The position numbers and the translations under genes are program-made. Shown one piece after another: positions 3,733 to 37,852 of a stretch of 64,000 nucleotides of DNA; the stretch's first letter is position 1; every line of letters begins with the position of its first letter. The notes under the pieces are model-generated. The model saw only the letters and a list, made by a program, of their open reading frames with translations, did no database searches and had not been told where the DNA came from. The stretch covers positions 806,001 to 870,000 of the forward strand of contig NW_027191456.1 in NCBI RefSeq assembly GCF_011745625.1, read 5' to 3'. The DNA is from Cladosporium halotolerans. Taxonomy: Eukaryota.

Positions 3733-3805
3733 TGCCCTAAGACGGAGTCGAACCGGCGACCTCGTCATTACTAGTGACGCGCTCTACCAACTGAGCTATC
3801 AGGGC
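3733..3805 (-). tRNA. tRNA-Thr(AGT), no intron
   Basis: Minus strand reads GCCCTGA TAGCTCAGTTGGTAGAGC G CGTCA CTAGTAA TGACG AGGTC GCCGG TTCGACT CCGTC TTAGGGC A; one T-stem mismatch; TTTT terminator a few nt downstream. Confidence 0.95.
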
Positions 3806-13155: not shown

Positions 13156-13284
13156 TGCCGGGAGTGGGATTCGAACCCACGCAGGGAAACCCTACGAGAA
13201 TGCTTCCTGTATTGAGCAGGAAAGTCGCAGCATGTGAAGTCTGCTAACTTGAGTCACGCGCCATAACCACTCGGCCATCCCGGC
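13156..13284 (-). tRNA. tRNA-Leu(CAA) with 47-nt intron (13201-13247)
   Basis: GCCGGGA TGGCCGAGTGGTTATGGC G CGTGA CT CAA G [intron] T TCTCG, long variable arm, GTGGG TTCGAAT CCCAC TCCCGGC A; 82 nt after splicing; T-run terminator downstream. Confidence 0.93.
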
Positions 13285-23509: not shown

Positions 23510-24283
23510 TTCTTTACCAATTCATGCTGCACTGTTCCTTTCCAGAGAATGCGACGAATGCTACACTCTGGATGTCCGATTCATATGAGTATCTGAGGCT
23601 TGGACAGCGTACTTACATACAATAGAAACTCAGACGGCCCGCCATAGAAGCAGGGTTTGCTTGGTTGCAAGTCATGTTTGCCTCATCTGGCTAAGAAGTG
23701 TGACCACGCGATATAGTGGAGTAAGCATTGATATCTAGAGCGGCATCAAGCGGCAAAAAGGCTTTGACAAAAACTTCATACAGCATACTAGTGGCCACTG
23801 GAAGTCATCAACTCAAGAGCGAGCCGCACGCAGCCTCGGAATGGATGTCCGCGGAAGCCGTTGTTAGACGGAACCGAAGGTCTGGCAGTGACCTAGCGTG
23901 TTGCCAATGTTGTAAGCTGCAGTTTTCGGCAAACTCGGGTTCCTTAGATGAAATGCTAGGACGTTCTGAAGTCGCTTGTACTACAATAGGCGACCAAGCC
24001 ATTTCAGGCCGTAAGTGGCATCAGTGTCTTTGAACGCGGTCCGGAGGAGGATTATCCGTGCTCCATGGGCTTCTCTAGAAGCCGCCCCGAAATTATGGAG
24101 ACAGCGTTCACTGGAATCGTGGGGATATCTACCTAGGTATGGCGATTGTGGACTAGGTGCATGATATTTGGATGTTAGAGGGATCCTTCCTTCCGGGCTG
24201 GGAGTTTTCGCGGTGTTCGTGCCACGCGAGCGGAGGTGTCCCGCTCCGGGCTGCAGCTCCCTGACCAGTTTCTCTGCCTCACT

Positions 24284-24790
24284 ATGTCATCAGTTGTCGA
24301 GCAACATCCTAGCGAAACCGACAAAAGCAGCGCTACGACAGATATCATGGCGGGAACCGGTGCGGAGTTTCCATGCACGCTGTACGGATCCGATATTGCT
24401 GTTTTGTCATGCGAAACTGCGCGCTGACCCCTCGCCAGCACCATAAACACGCCTTTTCCCACGAACCGCCTCGCAGAAGCAACCCTCAAATCGCTCTCAG
24501 TCGATGAAGAACTCTCACCTCTTGTCCGGCGGTCATTCTCCCTCGTCAACGCTGCTGGAGAAGAAGTTGGAGATGTGGAAGGAAGGACTATCCTCAGAAC
24601 AGAGTATAAGGCCACTACAAACCGCATGCTTCGCGTCGCTGTGAACGGCTTCTTCGAATCTTTGAATGTTGTCGTACAAGTCATGGAAGAATTGGACGTT
24701 GATGTTCTGCATGAAAAAGGACTTGAAGACCTAGAAGGAGTGCAAGGTGTGGAACAAGGGATGATCGGATCGACTGTTGGCGGAGCATGA
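24284..24790 (+). CDS. PCC1: EKC/KEOPS complex subunit Pcc1
   Basis: Exons 24284-24381 and 24439-24790; intron GTACGG..GCTGAC..CAG; gives FPCTLTINTPFPTNRLAEATLKSLSVDEELS..YKATTNRMLRVAVNGFFESL. Confidence 0.9.
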
Positions 24791-29866: not shown

Positions 29867-30911
29867 CTAGAAGTACTGATCTAGTACTCTGTTGCGATGG
29901 TTCACCAGATTTTGATGCTGTGCAATTTGTGTTGCGAGGCCGTTGGAACCCCAGGGCAGCTCCTCGTCTAGAATGAGATGAGTGTACGCGAAGATGCTCG
30001 CATCAAGCATGCTGGGCTGCGACTGGCTGAAAAACCACTCGCCTTCTCCCAAGAGTTCTGACAGCGCGGAGAATGCACTTCTAGCATCCCGTATGATATC
30101 CTCCTCTGATACAGTGTTGGAGTAAGAGGATTTGCAGAGCTCGCTTTCCGCCGCATCTCTCAGCTGGTGGTATATTGCGAGTTGGACGGGTAACGTTGAA
30201 GAGCAAGGTGCGACGTAAAGCTTGTGGACAAGAGAAGCATTGGAAGGGTGAAGATATAGTTGGTAAAGCTGTTCGTGATTAGTGAGAAATCCTAGTCTCA
30301 GCGCTTGATCAGGCCGACACACCCATGCTTTTCGCAAAGCGTTGTTCACCAAGGAGGCATATGATTCGTAGCGCAGATCTTCTGACTCTTCTGTCGCTTT
30401 TGATGTCTGGGTAGTTGCCCATTTCCTGAGCTTGTTGCTTGGGACAGCGTCAGGTATAGTCGATGACTCTTTCGCTTGTGCAGCAGGCTGCATGAATGGC
30501 AAGATTCCGGACGGCGATCCATGATTACTTGATGGAATCGTGCTGTATTCCAACCCCGAGAAGTTCAGGTAGGCCTGTACCATTCACGGTTTAGCCTCAT
30601 TACTTCGCGATTGTACCCGGCATAATCCTCACCTGCCATTTTAAACATCCTGGGTTGAAACTTGGTCTTCCCTTCTTTGCATCCTCTAATGTAGTGAACA
30701 CGTGCAGCACATGCTGATCTTTCTGCCTAGATGCTCTCAACGGAAGCTCGTTCTCGCCATATTGGACGAGCGGAAACTTGTCGAACACTCGCTTGAGTGG
30801 GGGAGGAATTCGGAAGATGCTGCTTTGTTGTTGCTGTGACCATGTGGCCGCTGGAGGGCCGCCGGCAGTCTGCGTCATGGAGGTTCGAGGTGGAATATCA
30901 TCTTTGGGCAT
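29867..30911 (-). CDS. SAM35: Mitochondrial SAM complex subunit Sam35/Tob38 (metaxin-like, GST fold)
   Basis: Exons 30911-30633, 30574-30323, 30268-29867; PPPLKRVFDKFPL, PSFNPGCLKWQAYL, SNHGSPSGILPF, LDASIFAYTHLIL. Confidence 0.85.
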
Positions 30912-31000
30912 GGCTGCCTCTTTGACCGATGCCCGCTGTCAACATGTCGCGCTCGGGGGTTTGGACTGCCACGTGCGGCGAGCGTCCCTAAGCAGTTAGA

Positions 31001-31018
31001 CCCTAACCCTAACCCTAA
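31001..31018. repeat. Interstitial telomere-type repeat (CCCTAA)3
   Basis: ccctaaccctaaccctaa ~90 bp upstream of the SAM35 ATG. Confidence 0.85.
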
Positions 31019-31599
31019 AAAAATAAGCGTAACGTTTGCTGAAACAATTATTCACCACATATTTGGGCCTCCATCCACTGATATGTCATTCAACATCCCC
31101 GTCAAAGAGAGGGAAAGACCCTCGGGTGTGCGTGGCTGCAATTCTGTCAAGGGCCGCGAAAGCATAGCGGCTGGTGACAAGGTTCGAACTCTCGTCGTGT
31201 GAGGAACTGGGGACAATCTCTGGGTGTGGACGGCTCCCTTCGTTGTATCTCAAATGCAAGTCAAGTAGCGAAATGACAAACATAACTCAAGGTTTACAAC
31301 TTGACATAGTGTGAACCGTTGCGGGACGATACTCGAATCGTGGGCCATCAAGCAAGGGGGAAAGAAGCGCGATCCCTAACTACGCTCTAACGATGTTTGA
31401 TCGATCGATAAATAAGGTGTTGTGCTGCGTACTTCTGGGTGTAGCGGTTGCTGAACCTCACTAGGTGCAAGCGTTGTACACTATCTGCATGTTCTACAAT
31501 GTGCTTGCTAAGAGCTCCGAATGCCAATCATTATCTGTAGAAATCTTATTAGCAAGGTTCATAACGTTGTCAGGTTCTCCCTAGAAGGCCGGCGTCACA

Positions 31600-31689
31600 A
31601 AATCTCAGGAGTAGATATTCTAAGTATTCGCAGCATTTGCCGAAGCATATGAGTGAGCTGGGTAAACTTAAGTGTTCTCATCTCGGAAG
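31600..31689 (-). ncRNA. Intronic box C/D snoRNA, snR71-like (predicted guide for the LSU rRNA A2946-equivalent 2'-O-methylation)
   Basis: Variant C box GAGATGA (31684-31678); D box CTGA (31608-31605); guide ACCCAGCTCAC (31663-31653) complementary to the conserved LSU sequence GTGAGCTGGGT, followed by T and D'-like CATA; 13-bp flanking stem; lies in intron 31728-31535 (GTATGT..GCTAAT..CAG). Confidence 0.8.
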
Positions 31690-33435
31690 TGACGACGGCC
31701 TTGGGCGGAAGAAAAGTTCGCAACATACCATGTGCGCCAATGTTGGCGGCCCAGTAGGCGCCTGCCCATTGCAGGTTCTCGAAAAGAGGGTGCTGTGTGT
31801 CAGTCCAAACTCTGTGGGACCATCGCGGCCACAGTGAATTGCCGTGTCGCATTGGCCTGGTCCCTAACTCAATCGGAACGCCCTCATAACAGTCTCGCCG
31901 CCAGCTGAACCCTCTAAGCGTTCGCTCTGCTGCCAGTACAAGGTGAGAGGGTCGCCGTTCTTAGAGCTGAGGTGACATAGAGTAAAACGATGCATAAGTC
32001 TGCATGTGATGGGCAAAAGGGCCGGGTAAAAAGGGTTAGCACATCAGAAACGGGAGGATGGTTGTCCGGTGCACTCGACGTCAGACCACAGACGTGCCGC
32101 TGTCAGGTGCGTTCCATCGTGCAAGATGTGCGACAAAGGGGGATCGGACGTGACGCGAAGTACAACTCTGAAGTTGGAAGAAGAAAGCCCCTGCATCAAT
32201 CGAAAATTCGCTTCCAAACCCGGCTTCGGTGGAAAGGACCGTGACCTGCTTGCAAGTTTAGACGCCGCAGGGCTTCCAATGGTGCGTGCGGGCTGCGATG
32301 ATGGAGCTGCCAAGCGGCATTAACCCGATGGCCATCATGCGGCACGACCCACTCAACCGAAGTGTCACCTGCATGGGCGGACCTGCTGCCAAAGCTCGGA
32401 GCCAAGCTTGTTCTACTCGACCGTGTCGACCTGGCGTGCCCTTGGTGCCTGGCGTGCCTGATTGGACCATGGTGGCACTAGACAGACGGGCTGGCGAGTC
32501 AGTCGGTAAAGGTCGGCAAGCTGAGATTGATTGGCGAACGGCCCTCTTTGCGACCTCTCCTGGCTCCTATGATGCATGAGGTGTCGCTGCTGTTGCCGAA
32601 TCTATCTCACCAAGATGCAGAATCTGACCCATCAGGTTGACAACATTCACCCACCACGTTTGCTAAAAGGCCTGCTAAGATCGAATTGCCTTTAAACGGC
32701 AGAGCTTCTTTGGCTTTGGCATCGGTCAACGCCAAAAACGGTTTGCTACAGAGATTCCGCGGGTGATCCACTGTGTTTCTAAGCAGAGGCATCAAGTTGA
32801 ATTCCGTGCACGGGAGATGTTGGACTAAGCTTTGATTACGGGCCCATAACTTTTCGGGTGCCGGGGCAAAGATAGTGGGAAGATCCCCGAGCCGGAGCCA
32901 TCCTCCGAAACCGATTTCCGTATTAGACCTGCATTCGGAAGCGCGAGAATAGCATCAGATGATGAGAGAGTCTTTGTCCGATAGATCCGAAGCATGAAAG
33001 CGACAGTGCACACATGCAAAGCCGCCGGATCGATGCTATCGCAAGAGTGTTGAGCCAGTATGGTGAGAGTCAAGGCCAGCCACCACGTGCCGCCGTTGTT
33101 CCACCGGCTCCGACTTCAGTCTTGGCCAAGCGCTAGGGCTTCTGTTGATTGTCCCCAGGCAGCTCTCCCGGCCACCGCGCTCGAGAGAGACGGCAACAAT
33201 CGCGATCACTAGGATGCGCTATTGCAGGTCGCATCATTGTCCGACCTGTTGGCCGCTGTGGAGAGGGCGCCGGCAAAAGCCACTAGGAAGTAGGCCAGAC
33301 ATAGCAACGGTAGCTGTATCTCTTTCACTTGTCTGTTCCCTCACACCGACACACCTCTGCTCGCTTTGACCGTTGTTCTTTTGCTTTGCTTGGGTCGCAT
33401 CACGTCGCAATCGCAGCTTGGATCGAGAATTCACG

Positions 33436-34014
33436 ATGCCTTTTCAAATGATGGAGAAAAGGGCGACCACTGGTGGAAAGGGAGGCCTTAGCTATGAAGC
33501 AATCACAGCTATCACGATTTGCGTTGCTGGTTTCGTTATGTTGATGGTGCTCGCCTGTGCCATCAATATGCGGAGAAGAAAGGGTGACGAAGGCAAAGTC
33601 GACGCCTCGGACCTCGACCCCGAACAGCAGACCTACATGCGCGACGTCAGATACCGCAACCGCGACACACTTACTGGAACGAACCACTTCACATTGGCCG
33701 CCGGCTCCAACCCGCCCAGTCGTCAACCTACCAACTATATGTCCAGGTCTGGAATGAGCGGTTACGGCTACGACGAAGTCTACACTCCTGGTTGGGAGTC
33801 GGGCAACACGACAAAGCGTAGCAGCTCAGCATACGTCGACCACTCTCCCGAAGGTGGATACTTCAACGACTACGCCGCCCCTGTTGGCCAACCGGTTACC
33901 TACCAAGCTCCCAACGAGATGTCTGAGAAGCCCGCCATGAACGCAGCCGTCCAAGAGGCCGAGCCTACGCCTTACGCGCCCGCAGACCCCAACAACCACA
34001 ACGAAAAGATCTGA
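33436..34014 (+). CDS. Hypothetical single-pass membrane protein
   Basis: TM segment AITAITICVAGFVMLMVLACAI followed by RRRK; S/Y/P-rich tail. Confidence 0.75.
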   Translation: MPFQMMEKRATTGGKGGLSYEAITAITICVAGFVMLMVLACAINMRRRKGDEGKVDASDLDPEQQTYMRDVRYRNRDTLTGTNHFTLAAGSNPPSRQPTNYMSRSGMSGYGYDEVYTPGWESGNTTKRSSSAYVDHSPEGGYFNDYAAPVGQPVTYQAPNEMSEKPAMNAAVQEAEPTPYAPADPNNHNEKI

Positions 34015-37019: not shown

Positions 37020-37852
37020 TCTGCCGTACGATACTCTTCATGTCAGGTTGAAGGGGAACAGTCTGTAGGCCGTCACTGCGGGAGCGGAGGCTCAGGAGGA
37101 GTCATTAAGTAATCGCCAAATACAAATGGTATGCAGTGCATCGGATCGAGGGCCGCATGTGCTTCCTGAGGCTCAAGGCAGCACAACATGAGGCTTGCCG
37201 GGGGCATGGTCCTATAGTCAGGCCACCTGCACGGTCTGTAACACAACGCCAGGGTAATGCATTGCAGCTCTGTTGAAGGCTGGATAATGACAGCTACCGT
37301 ACCACAGCTGCCTGTCTTGTTCGGCGAATGAGGCAAAGCCCTCAATCGAGGCGGTCGCCACCAGCTGTTGGTAGGACGCGCCGCGATTTTGCCCTCGACG
37401 GTGGAGAAAAAGGTAGCAAGGAGCATGTTCACATAGCTAAGCAGAGTTTGTTATCCCGGAAGAGCTGGGATCTTAGTGTCAAGAAGCGACATGCAGCATC
37501 TGAAAGAAGGTGAGGTCCGGAAGGGCGCCCGGCGGCCAGTCGAAGCCTGGGAATCCGCCAAGCAAAACCGGGGAGCGAGAACATTGGGCAGCGTTCGGAA
37601 CGAGGCAACGCCACGCTGACATGCCTCTGGCCCCCAAAGGTGAGTGCAGGTCGGAGAGACAAGGCTGTGGTCGAGGTGCTTGAACCCACACGAGCCTATT
37701 GGAGAGGCTCGGCCGGCTCACCATGTTACTCGGGTACCTCGGAAATCGACCATGTGGTGCTATTCAAGGATGGCATGAAAATAGGCGTTGGGAAAAGACA
37801 TCGAAGACTCCGATACGGTGCAGTTCTCATGCACAAAGAGCTTTCTAACCGA

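What the first reader, a model, noticed from the sequence alone, without database searches (positions are those of the whole stretch)
31535..31792. Hidden non-coding host gene with an intronic snR71-like box C/D snoRNA carrying variant boxes
Seen (minus strand): a 64-nt exon (31792-31729), then a 194-nt intron (GTATGT 31728, GCTAAT 31553-31548, CAG 31535), about three times the local intron size. Inside, a stem AAGGCCG-T-CGTCAC / GTGACG-C-CGGCCTT brackets GAGATGA...CTGA, an 11-nt guide ACCCAGCTCAC and a TGC-TTCG-GCA hairpin. Known: GTGAGCTGGGT is conserved LSU rRNA near the peptidyl transferase centre, methylated in yeast by snR71 (Am2946) and snR69 (Cm2948). Inference: with D'=CATA the D+5 rule gives the A (snR71); reading CTCA as D' would give the C. 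Both C and D' deviate from consensus, and the flanking exons have no credible ORF.
Basis: partly seen in the sequence, partly recalled or inferred. Interest (0 to 1): 0.75.

Follow-up and report, generated by a model that had tools for sequence, protein, structure and literature searches.

The report
Fungal snR71-type methylation guide snoRNA
This is an ordinary member of a well-known fungal small nucleolar RNA family (snR71/U29) that guides one ribose methylation of large-subunit ribosomal RNA, unusual only in sitting in an ORF-less transcript rather than in the importin gene intron that usually hosts it.

Summary
Rfam gives no hit here. A covariance model built from 14 independent metagenome homologues does: one window hit, 31597-31692(-), 68.9 bits. 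The RNA is the orthologue of S. cerevisiae snR71, human U29 and N. crassa CD27. The published snR71 alignment already contains both "variant" boxes: box C AGAUGA in 2 of 24 Pezizomycotina rows and D' CAUA in 3 of 24. The A-or-C double reading was already printed for N. crassa CD27. Separate snR69 genes are listed for many Pezizomycotina, so the A (yeast A2946) is the likely sole target. The intron is supported by comparison: box D to the 3' splice site is 67-70 nt in 12 of 14 homologues and 70 nt here. The covered transcript has no ORF above 54 aa once spliced. In 12 of 14 homologues the host is an importin beta-4 gene intron, so this copy has changed host. It also carries a lineage-specific 13-bp external stem. 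Verdict: real, a new member of a known kind, low interest.

The parts
31410..32166 (-). Stretch covered by RNA or RNA-like contigs; the putative host transcript. Its ends are only a weak hint.
   Evidence: X4 (oligo-dT RNA) contigs cover 31586-31733, 31757-31907 and 31999-32149. X1 (guessed to be RNA) contigs cover 31410-31611 and 31654-32166. Strand is inferred from the snoRNA and the splice signals.
31535..31728 (-). Putative 194-nt intron: GTATGT 31728-23, branch GCTAAT 31553-48, CAG ending at 31535.
   Evidence: by eye; the geometry (5'ss to box C 44 nt, box D to 3'ss 70 nt) matches the homologues. No junction was seen in RNA.
31689..31702 (-). 5' arm of the external stem.
   Evidence: duplex -24.3 kcal/mol, 0/300 shuffles as good. 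Absent from all 14 homologues.
31602..31689 (-). Predicted mature snoRNA, about 85-90 nt; the ends are inferred.
   Evidence: Custom model R1 hits 31597-31692(-) at 68.9 bits, E about 4e-12. N. crassa CD27 is 85 nt.
31678..31684 (-). Box C, GAGAUGA (A in place of the consensus U at position 2).
   Evidence: The same variant is in L026 and in 2 of 24 Pezizomycotina rows of the published alignment.
31666..31671 (-). 5' half of a weak inner helix, pairing with 31625-31620.
   Evidence: helix 22-27/77-82 is 66.7% paired, and 2 pairs change on both sides.
31653..31663 (-). D' guide ACCCAGCUCAC, 11 nt, complementary to LSU 5'-GUGAGCUGGGU-3'.
   Evidence: Invariant in 15 of 15 rows of A1, though the search pattern forced this. 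The target is as printed for N. crassa 26S and in the yeast snR71 header.
31648..31651 (-). D' box CAUA. The overlapping alternative CUCA lies at 31650-31653.
   Evidence: It aligns with CAGA of yeast snR71 and N. crassa CD27.
31638..31647 (-). D'-C' hairpin, UGC-UUCG-GCA.
   Evidence: 95% of cells paired, 3 of 4 pairs change on both sides, 0/500 shuffles reach the score.
31628..31636 (-). C' box region, AUGCUGCGA.
   Evidence: nearly invariant TGCTG; aligned under the RUGA-UGA consensus.
31610..31616 (-). AUCUACU element next to box D, taken as accessory ('extra') base-pairing to the LSU.
   Evidence: the same element in Pezizomycotina snR71 rows stands over the consensus-line label L2920-14. 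The window shares it with N. crassa CD27 and with L002 and L003.
31605..31608 (-). Box D, CUGA.
31585..31598 (-). 3' arm of the external stem.

Best explanation
The locus encodes the snR71/U29/Nc-CD27-type box C/D snoRNA of a Dothideomycete-like fungus. It lies inside a roughly 0.75-kb ORF-less transcript read from the minus strand, between intron signals. Those signals place it 44 nt after the 5' splice site and 70 nt before the 3' splice site. After splicing and debranching, or by a splicing-independent cut, exonucleases would trim the RNA down to the ends protected by the snoRNP. Next to the boxes there is only a 2-bp terminal stem. A 13-bp external stem would therefore bring the AGAUGA box C and the CUGA box D together so that Snu13, Nop58, Nop56 and Nop1 can assemble. 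The 11-nt D' guide pairs with LSU 5'-GUGAGCUGGGU-3', and Nop1 methylates the A at the fifth pair from D' (CAUA); this is yeast A2946 and N. crassa A2904. The AUCUACU element next to box D adds accessory pairing about 30 nt upstream in the rRNA. What is shown: the motifs, the homology, the conservation and covariation, the transcription of the stretch, and the conserved intron geometry. What is inferred: the splicing, the mature RNA, protein binding and the methylation.
For: Identity. Searches give the N. crassa CD27 sequence and its duplex drawing; it shares ACCCAGCUCACUCA and AUCUACUCCUGA with the window. One search is the published snR71 alignment, in which the Ncra row equals CD27 and yeast snR71 carries the same CAGCTCAC-T-CAGA; a model built from 14 homologues without the window gives a single hit at 31597-31692(-), 68.9 bits. 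Conservation. Of the 36 pattern hits, 22 have the full snoRNA layout, and 14 of those are unique. The hairpin covaries. Other organisms' contigs in X2 and X16 share the core 31619-31694. Intron; box D to the first AG after a CTRAY branch motif is 67-70 nt in 12 of 14 homologues and 70 nt in the window. A GTRNGY 5' splice site lies 37-49 nt before box C in 11 of 14 homologues and 44 nt before it in the window. Transcription; contigs of X4 (oligo-dT RNA) and X1 cover 31410-32166. Non-coding host. The longest ATG ORF is 54 aa in the spliced form. The 3 small ORFs match 0 Pfam families. The flanks have no similarity to the homologues' exons. Target A. Separate snR69 rows exist for Ncra, Smac, Foxy, Gzea, Acla, Afla, Nfis, Bfuc and others.
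Against: No Rfam family reaches E<=10 at the site or its gathering score anywhere in the window. The homologues reach only 19 bits against SNORD29, whose gathering score is 48. No splice junction appears in 0 of 4 runs, and the RNA contigs of X1 and X4 contain the intron and cross both splice sites. No run can show an 85-90-nt RNA, because all four were laid as contigs. Box C lacks the consensus U, D' lacks the GA dinucleotide, and the terminal stem beside the boxes is only 2 bp. The organism's own rRNA could not be read because no genome is held, so the target sequence is taken from the N. crassa and yeast drawings.
Confidence: 0.72

Rival explanations
1. One guide, two sites. The overlapping D' boxes CUCA and CAUA let the same guide direct methylation of both the A and the C two nucleotides downstream, so the RNA does the work of snR71 and snR69 together.
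For: Liu et al. 2009 predicted exactly this for N. crassa CD27. Yeast snR48 methylates two Gs two nucleotides apart through overlapping D' boxes.
Against: The published snR69 alignment lists dedicated snR69 genes for N. crassa and many other Pezizomycotina, so the C has its own guide. CUCA is equally present in yeast snR71, which is listed under L2946 only. Whether this organism has an snR69 could not be tested, because no genome is held. The window itself holds no snR69-like site beyond chance: 4 matches at 3 mismatches against 3.87 expected, and the best of them has no boxes.
Confidence: 0.1
2. The snoRNA is real but not intronic in practice. It would be released from the unspliced 0.75-kb transcript by endonuclease and exonuclease processing, and the splice-like signals would be unused or relics.
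For: Every RNA contig that reaches the splice sites runs through them, and 0 of 4 runs show the junction. The long external stem could serve as an entry site for processing (this is inference).
Against: GTATGT, GCTAAT and CAG are all intact. The 44/70-nt geometry equals that of homologues lying in a true coding-gene intron. Contigs drop rare forms, and depth was only about 4-6. A spliced non-coding host RNA may be short-lived (inference).
Confidence: 0.13
3. A redundant, decaying paralogue. The working snR71 sits elsewhere, in the importin beta-4 intron, and this copy with weakened boxes no longer forms an active snoRNP.
For: Box C is AGAUGA, D' is CAUA, and the adjacent terminal stem is only 2 bp. 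X2 and X16 hold extra contigs that share 31619-31694 and then continue with the other type of D guide. In X16 their depth (10.9-17.1) is close to that of the flanks (15.7-17.5).
Against: The same box variants occur in other species' listed snR71 genes. The accessory element, the hairpin and C' are intact, and a strong external stem has been added. In the relatives' contigs no difference is listed between 31563 and 31734, while X2's flanks differ at about 8%; that table is truncated, so this is weak. X2 and X16 are large mixed contig sets, so the extra contigs may come from other fungi.
Confidence: 0.05

Closest known systems
N. crassa Nc CD27 (EU780951; Liu et al. 2009, PMC2780460)
   Same: Box order, D' guide core, CUCA overlap, D'-C' hairpin, C' box, the AUCUACUCCUGA 3' end and the intronic position. 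It is 85 nt long.
   Different: CD27 has box C UGAUGA, D' CAGA and a 15-bp guide. The window has AGAUGA, CAUA and 11 bp, plus a 13-bp external stem. An 11-bp guide is the norm in the other homologues.
S. cerevisiae snR71 (25S Am2946) and its fungal alignment (van Nues et al. 2011, PMC3116282, Suppl. Fig. S1)
   Same: Same target, the same CAGCUCAC-U-D' arrangement, and an accessory pairing element before box D.
   Different: I recall that yeast snR71 is independently transcribed; I did not check this here. Its accessory elements are UUUCCUA and UCCAAC rather than AUCUACU.
Human SNORD29 (U29), Rfam RF00070
   Same: Equivalent guide, and an ACUCCUGA 3' end in the model consensus. Liu et al. list U29 as the human and plant equivalent. 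I recall that U29 lies in an intron of a non-coding host gene (UHG/SNHG1).
   Different: The window gives no Rfam hit. The homologues reach 19 bits against a gathering score of 48.
snR69 (25S Cm2948)
   Same: It pairs with the same rRNA stretch, offset by two nucleotides.
   Different: snR69 rows have a 5' hairpin between box C and the guide, a guide ending in CCCAGCUC(U/G), and D' UCGA. The window has none of these.
Non-coding snoRNA host genes of N. crassa clusters I-V (UHG/gas5-like)
   Same: Canonical intron signals around the snoRNA and only short ORFs: 159-267 bp there, at most 54 aa here.
   Different: Those hosts carry several snoRNAs and were confirmed by RT-PCR. Here one snoRNA was found and no spliced RNA was seen.

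Membership tests
Box C/D snoRNA | Box C RUGAUGA near the 5' end | tested here: inconclusive
   The window has GAGAUGA, with A for U at position 2. The GA and UGA parts are kept. The same variant is in L026 and in 2 of 24 published Pezizomycotina snR71 rows.
Box C/D snoRNA | Box D CUGA near the 3' end, brought next to box C by a terminal stem | tested here: met
   CUGA lies at 31608-31605. There are 2 bp next to the boxes and a 13-bp external stem of -24.3 kcal/mol, with 0/300 shuffles as good.
Box C/D snoRNA | A guide of at least 10 nt ending next to D/D', with the target at the fifth pair | tested here: met
   There are 11 Watson-Crick pairs to the printed 26S target, and the A is fifth from CAUA. 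The organism's own rRNA was not available.
Box C/D snoRNA | A stable RNA of about 70-120 nt bound by Snu13, Nop56, Nop58 and Nop1 | not testable with these tools
   All four runs were laid as contigs, which cannot show ends or small RNAs.
snR71 / SNORD29 / Nc CD27 group | Sequence and structure match to family members | tested here: met
   The custom model from 14 homologues gives 68.9 bits, full length, as the only hit in 64 kb. About 20 of the 97 model positions were fixed by the search pattern that found the homologues.
snR71 / SNORD29 / Nc CD27 group | Rfam model score at or above the gathering threshold | tested here: not met
   No snoRNA family reaches E<=10 at the site. Canonical homologues also fail: SNORD29 scores 19 bits against 48.
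snR71 / SNORD29 / Nc CD27 group | Accessory pairing element before box D (Pezizomycotina form AUCUACU) | tested here: met
   It lies at 31616-31610 and is identical to the element in the Ncra, Vdah, Bfuc and Pans rows.
snR69 | 5' hairpin, guide CCCAGCUC(U/G), D' UCGA | tested here: not met
   The window has CUCAC-UCAUA and no 5' hairpin (one search compared).
Intron-encoded snoRNA in a non-coding host gene | Spliced host transcript | tested here: inconclusive
   Splice signals and geometry are conserved. The junction is seen in 0 of 4 runs, and the RNA contigs are unspliced at depth about 4-6.
Intron-encoded snoRNA in a non-coding host gene | No protein-coding capacity in the exons | tested here: met
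   The longest ORF is 54 aa spliced and 85 aa unspliced. There are 0 Pfam hits and no exon similarity to 14 homologue loci.

The most novel reading that the evidence does not exclude
The family's ancestral home in Pezizomycotina is one intron of the importin beta-4 gene. This copy has left that intron, probably as a paralogue that coexists with an importin-intron copy carrying a U95-like second guide. It now has its own ORF-less host transcript, and it kept the 44/70-nt intron geometry. It also acquired a 13-bp external stem that makes up for a weakened kink-turn (AGAUGA box C and a 2-bp terminal stem). If so, this would be a caught-in-the-act case of a non-coding snoRNA host gene arising by duplication of an intron.
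Probability: 0.35. Interest if true: 0.4.

Novelty: new member of a known kind. Interest (0 to 1): 0.2.

Why it matters
The finding adds an unannotated but expected rRNA-methylation guide to this genome. It also shows that the 'variant' boxes are normal variation within the snR71 family. The one point with some wider value is evolutionary. The same snoRNA sits in an importin beta-4 intron in 12 of 14 other fungi, yet here it sits in an ORF-less transcript with an added external stem. That makes it a compact case for studying how snoRNAs change host and how flanking stems compensate for weak box C/D motifs.

Tried and rejected
- **Whole genome:** none is held for this window. The organism's rRNA, an snR69 gene and a second snR71 copy could therefore not be sought.
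- **Earlier findings of the scan:** nothing by place, sequence or words.
- **Rfam:** only a 19-bit SNORD73-like match at 31022-31063(-), E 8.1, judged chance. The whole window holds only two tRNAs.
- **snR69-like motif in the window:** 4 matches at 3 mismatches against 3.87 expected. The best, at 37457-37471, has no boxes.
- **Guide 11-mer with 1 mismatch:** 2 matches against 1.57 expected, so this search is not informative on its own.
- **Single-sequence fold of 31590-31705:** z = -0.27, uninformative, and it cut off part of the outer stem.
- **Intron-flank homology to the importin-intron copies:** only L014's 5' flank stands out, with a 12-nt exact match and 0/300 shuffles. That is 1 of 28 tests, so it is at most a hint.
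- **Pfam on the two L028 exon translations:** nothing useful.
- **PDB sequence search:** 0 hits for L028 exon 1. There was one weak Importin-4 hit, E 0.14, from an L036 stretch whose frame I had not checked. I used it only as a lead, later settled.
- **Read laying coverage:** X1 and X4 give no cover in 30900-31409 or 32167-33450. That is not evidence of transcript ends. The stops of two studies at 32149 and 32166 are a weak hint only.
- **The fungal snoRNAome (PMC5824354):** snR71, snR69, CD27 and 'host gene' do not occur in the main text. I did not open its supplements.
- **Not used:** structure prediction, complex prediction and the protein atlas, because no protein is at issue.
Full report
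**Observation.**
- GTATGT at 31728-31723, GCTAAT at 31553-31548, and CAG ending at 31535, giving a 194-nt interval.
- GAGATGA at 31684-31678.
- ACCCAGCTCAC at 31663-31653.
- CATA at 31651-31648, overlapping CTCA at 31653-31650.
- The hairpin TGC-TTCG-GCA at 31647-31638.
- CTGA at 31608-31605.
- Two arms, 31702-31689 and 31598-31585, that pair as 6 bp, one T.C mismatch, then 7 bp.

The arm duplex has -24.3 kcal/mol, and 0 of 300 shuffles are as good. The neighbouring gene's intron is 58 nt by eye, so 194 nt is indeed about three times the local intron size.

**Database models.** Rfam finds nothing at the site at E<=10. The only match in 30500-33000 is a 19-bit SNORD73-like one at 31022-31063. 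Over the whole window Rfam finds only two tRNAs. This is a weakness of the models rather than of the locus. Fourteen homologues with canonical boxes also reach only 19 bits against SNORD29, whose gathering score is 48.

**Identity from the literature.** I read passages of Liu et al. 2009 (PMC2780460) and its Additional files 1 and 4 in full.
- They list N. crassa CD27 as 85 nt and intronic.
- It shares with the window the stretch ACCCAGCUCACUCA and the 3' end AUCUACUCCUGA.
- Their drawing pairs the guide with 26S 5'-GUGAGCUGGGUUUAG-3'.
- They predict two targets from one guide: Am2904 with D' CAGA (equivalents snR71/U29) and Cm2906 with D' CUCA (equivalent snR69).

I also read passages of van Nues et al. 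2011 (PMC3116282) and parts 14 and 15 of its supplementary file 1.
- The snR71 alignment includes the CD27 sequence as row Ncra. It shows that yeast snR71 itself has CAGCTCAC-T-CAGA under the header L2946.
- Among the 24 Pezizomycotina rows, D' is CATA in 3 (Pbra, Acap, Aapi).
- Box C is AAGATGA in 2 (Pnod, Ptri). My reading of these two abbreviations as Pleosporales species is from memory.
- So each 'variant' box has a published precedent.

**Which nucleotide is methylated.**
- With CAUA as D', the fifth guide position upstream is the U at 31656. It pairs with the A of GUGA*GC.
- With CUCA as D', the fifth position is the G at 31658. It pairs with the C two nucleotides on.
- The same supplement lists dedicated snR69 genes for many Pezizomycotina, including Ncra, Smac, Foxy, Gzea, Acla, Afla, Nfis and Bfuc. 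They have a guide ending CCCAGCTC(T/G), D' TCGA and a 5' hairpin.
- The C therefore has its own guide in this group, and I take the A as the sole likely target.
- A two-site mechanism remains possible in principle. Yeast snR48 uses overlapping D' boxes to methylate two Gs two nucleotides apart (van Nues and Watkins 2017, PMC5389607; abstract, sections 10 and 3).
- The window holds no snR69-like site beyond chance. The rest of the genome could not be searched.

**Homologues.** I scanned metagenome contigs for GATGAG, a gap of 9-19 nt, then ACCCAGCTCACTCA.
- The scan gave 36 loci.
- By inspection, 22 have the full snoRNA layout and 14 are chance hits in bacterial-looking sequence.
- Eight of the 22 duplicate another core, leaving 14 unique homologues.
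- In the alignment with the window (A1), box C has U at position 2 in 13 of 14 homologues and A in L026 and in the window.
- The two free D' positions read GA in 11 homologues, AA in 3, and UA in the window only.
- The D'-C' hairpin is 95% paired, 3 of its 4 pairs change on both sides, and 0 of 500 shuffles reach its score.
- A weaker inner helix is 66.7% paired.
- A covariance model built from the 14 homologues without the window (A2, R1) finds one hit in 64 kb: 31597-31692(-), 68.9 bits, rough E 4e-12, full length. About 20 of the 97 positions were fixed by the search pattern; the remainder is independent.

**The 3' half.** The homologues fall into three types before box D.
- One type has AGAGGCUGUUU, which matches the SNORD95 3' guide. 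That would be a second methylation guide.
- A second type has AUCUACUC. The window, N. crassa CD27, L002 and L003 belong to it.
- A third type has AUCUA(C/U)AUU.
- In the published alignment the AUCUACU element of Pezizomycotina stands over the consensus-line label L2920-14. I take this to mean accessory ('extra') base-pairing to 25S 2914-2920, the kind that paper shows can raise methylation up to five-fold.
- An 11-bp guide helped by such an element is the family norm. N. crassa's 15 bp is the exception.

**Is it in an intron?**
- Comparison says yes. In the 14 homologues the distance from box D to the first AG after a CTRAY branch motif is 67-70 nt in 12; L036 has 61 and L021 has 102. The window has 70.
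- A GTRNGY 5' splice site lies 37-49 nt before box C in 11 of 14. L013 has 85, L021 has 58, and L004 has none by this expression. The window has 44.
- Liu et al. cite work showing that this distance to the 3' splice site matters for processing. I saw only their sentence and the reference entry.
- RNA does not yet say yes. I laid four runs at 85% likeness or better, and none shows a joint at 31729/31534.
- X4, a true oligo-dT RNA library, has 151-nt contigs at 31586-31733, 31757-31907 and 31999-32149.
- X1, only guessed to be RNA, has contigs at 31410-31611 and 31654-32166.
- Depth is about 4-6, and contigs drop rare forms. This therefore shows an unspliced precursor; it does not show absence of splicing. 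The 64-nt exon has no support.

**Host.**
- The covered stretch 32166-31410 has no ATG ORF longer than 85 aa unspliced; that ORF runs through the snoRNA. Spliced, the longest is 54 aa.
- Three small ORFs match no Pfam family.
- Similarity between the window and the 14 homologue loci is confined to 31714-31605, at both DNA and protein level.
- By contrast, in 12 of the 14 homologues both flanks are open in the same phase, with 0 stops in 12 of 12, and the flanks are alike among the homologues.
- The L028 upstream exon matches proteins of about 1100 aa that sources name importin subunit beta-4 or importin-4: 110 of 129 candidates at E<=0.001, best 2e-47.
- The window has no such exons. The best tblastn E is 0.003, elsewhere, at 24283-24399.
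- So the usual home of this snoRNA is one intron of the importin beta-4 gene, and here it sits in a different, ORF-less unit. L004 and L021 also have other hosts.
- One literature search (snoRNA, importin, intron, Pezizomycotina) listed 2 papers. Neither is about this by title or abstract, and I read neither. I claim no more than that.
- A neighbouring 510-aa ORF is closest, among named proteins, to a Cladosporium protein at 68% identity. The organism is therefore probably a Dothideomycete.

**A possible second copy.**
- In X16 and X2, which cover the whole stretch like DNA, extra short contigs share 31619-31694. They then continue with the AGAGGCUGUUU-CUGA type of 3' half (loose ends).
- In X16 their depth (10.9-17.1) is near that of the flanks (15.7-17.5).
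- This fits a paralogue in the relatives' genomes. Both runs are large mixed contig sets, however, so other fungi in the sample are an equally simple source.
- One 12-nt exact match between the window's 5' intron flank and L014's is the only sign of intron-level homology. It is 1 of 28 tests.

**External stem.**
- None of the 14 homologues has anything like the window's flanking duplex. They have 4-7 bp terminal stems directly beside the boxes.
- In the window only 2 bp (UC/GA) adjoin the boxes, by eye.
- I infer that the external stem substitutes for the missing terminal stem and helps a box C that lacks the consensus U.
- That flanking inverted repeats can do this for intronic snoRNAs is recalled from the literature; I did not check it here.

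**Verdict.** It is an expected member of a long-known family. Its box variants and its double reading are already in print, and ORF-less host genes are known from N. crassa. What remains open is the RNA-level proof: the mature RNA, the junction and the methylation. Whether this is a relocated or a duplicated copy is also open.

Noticed in passing
window 31018-31001 (minus strand): Three perfect telomere-like TTAGGG units lie about 90 nt upstream of the ATG (30911) of the next minus-strand gene. That gene's two ORF pieces match SAM35 and Tom37/GST-like domains. Contigs of X2 and X16 break or diverge right at 31021-31022. This may be a promoter element of the kind bound by Tbf1-type factors; that idea is from memory and was not tested.
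   Followed up: partly
L001, L002, L003, L006, L007, L009, L013, L014, L015, L026, L028, L036: In 12 of 14 unique metagenome homologues the snR71-type snoRNA lies in the same phase-2 intron of an importin beta-4 gene. One literature search did not turn up a description of this.
   Followed up: partly
L001, L007, L009, L014, L021, L028 (3' half of the snoRNA): These homologues replace the AUCUACU element with AGAGGCUGUUU-CUGA. That matches the 3' guide of SNORD95/U95 and resembles the D' guide of N. crassa CD28. It amounts to a double-guide fusion of two functions that sit in separate snoRNAs elsewhere.
   Followed up: no
window 31684-31678 with 31656-31650: RNAalifold pairs the invariant GAUGAG of box C with the CUCA(C)UC at the guide's end and D' in all 15 sequences. 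Every column is invariant, so this says nothing about function. It could be an inactive fold of the free RNA.
   Followed up: no
window 13156-13284 (minus strand): A tRNA match 129 nt long against a 71-position model (46 bits), which suggests a tRNA gene with an intron. A second, ordinary tRNA lies at 3733-3805.
   Followed up: no
window 31022-31063 (minus strand): A 19-bit SNORD73-like match, E 8.1, outside the RNA-covered stretch. It is probably chance.
   Followed up: no
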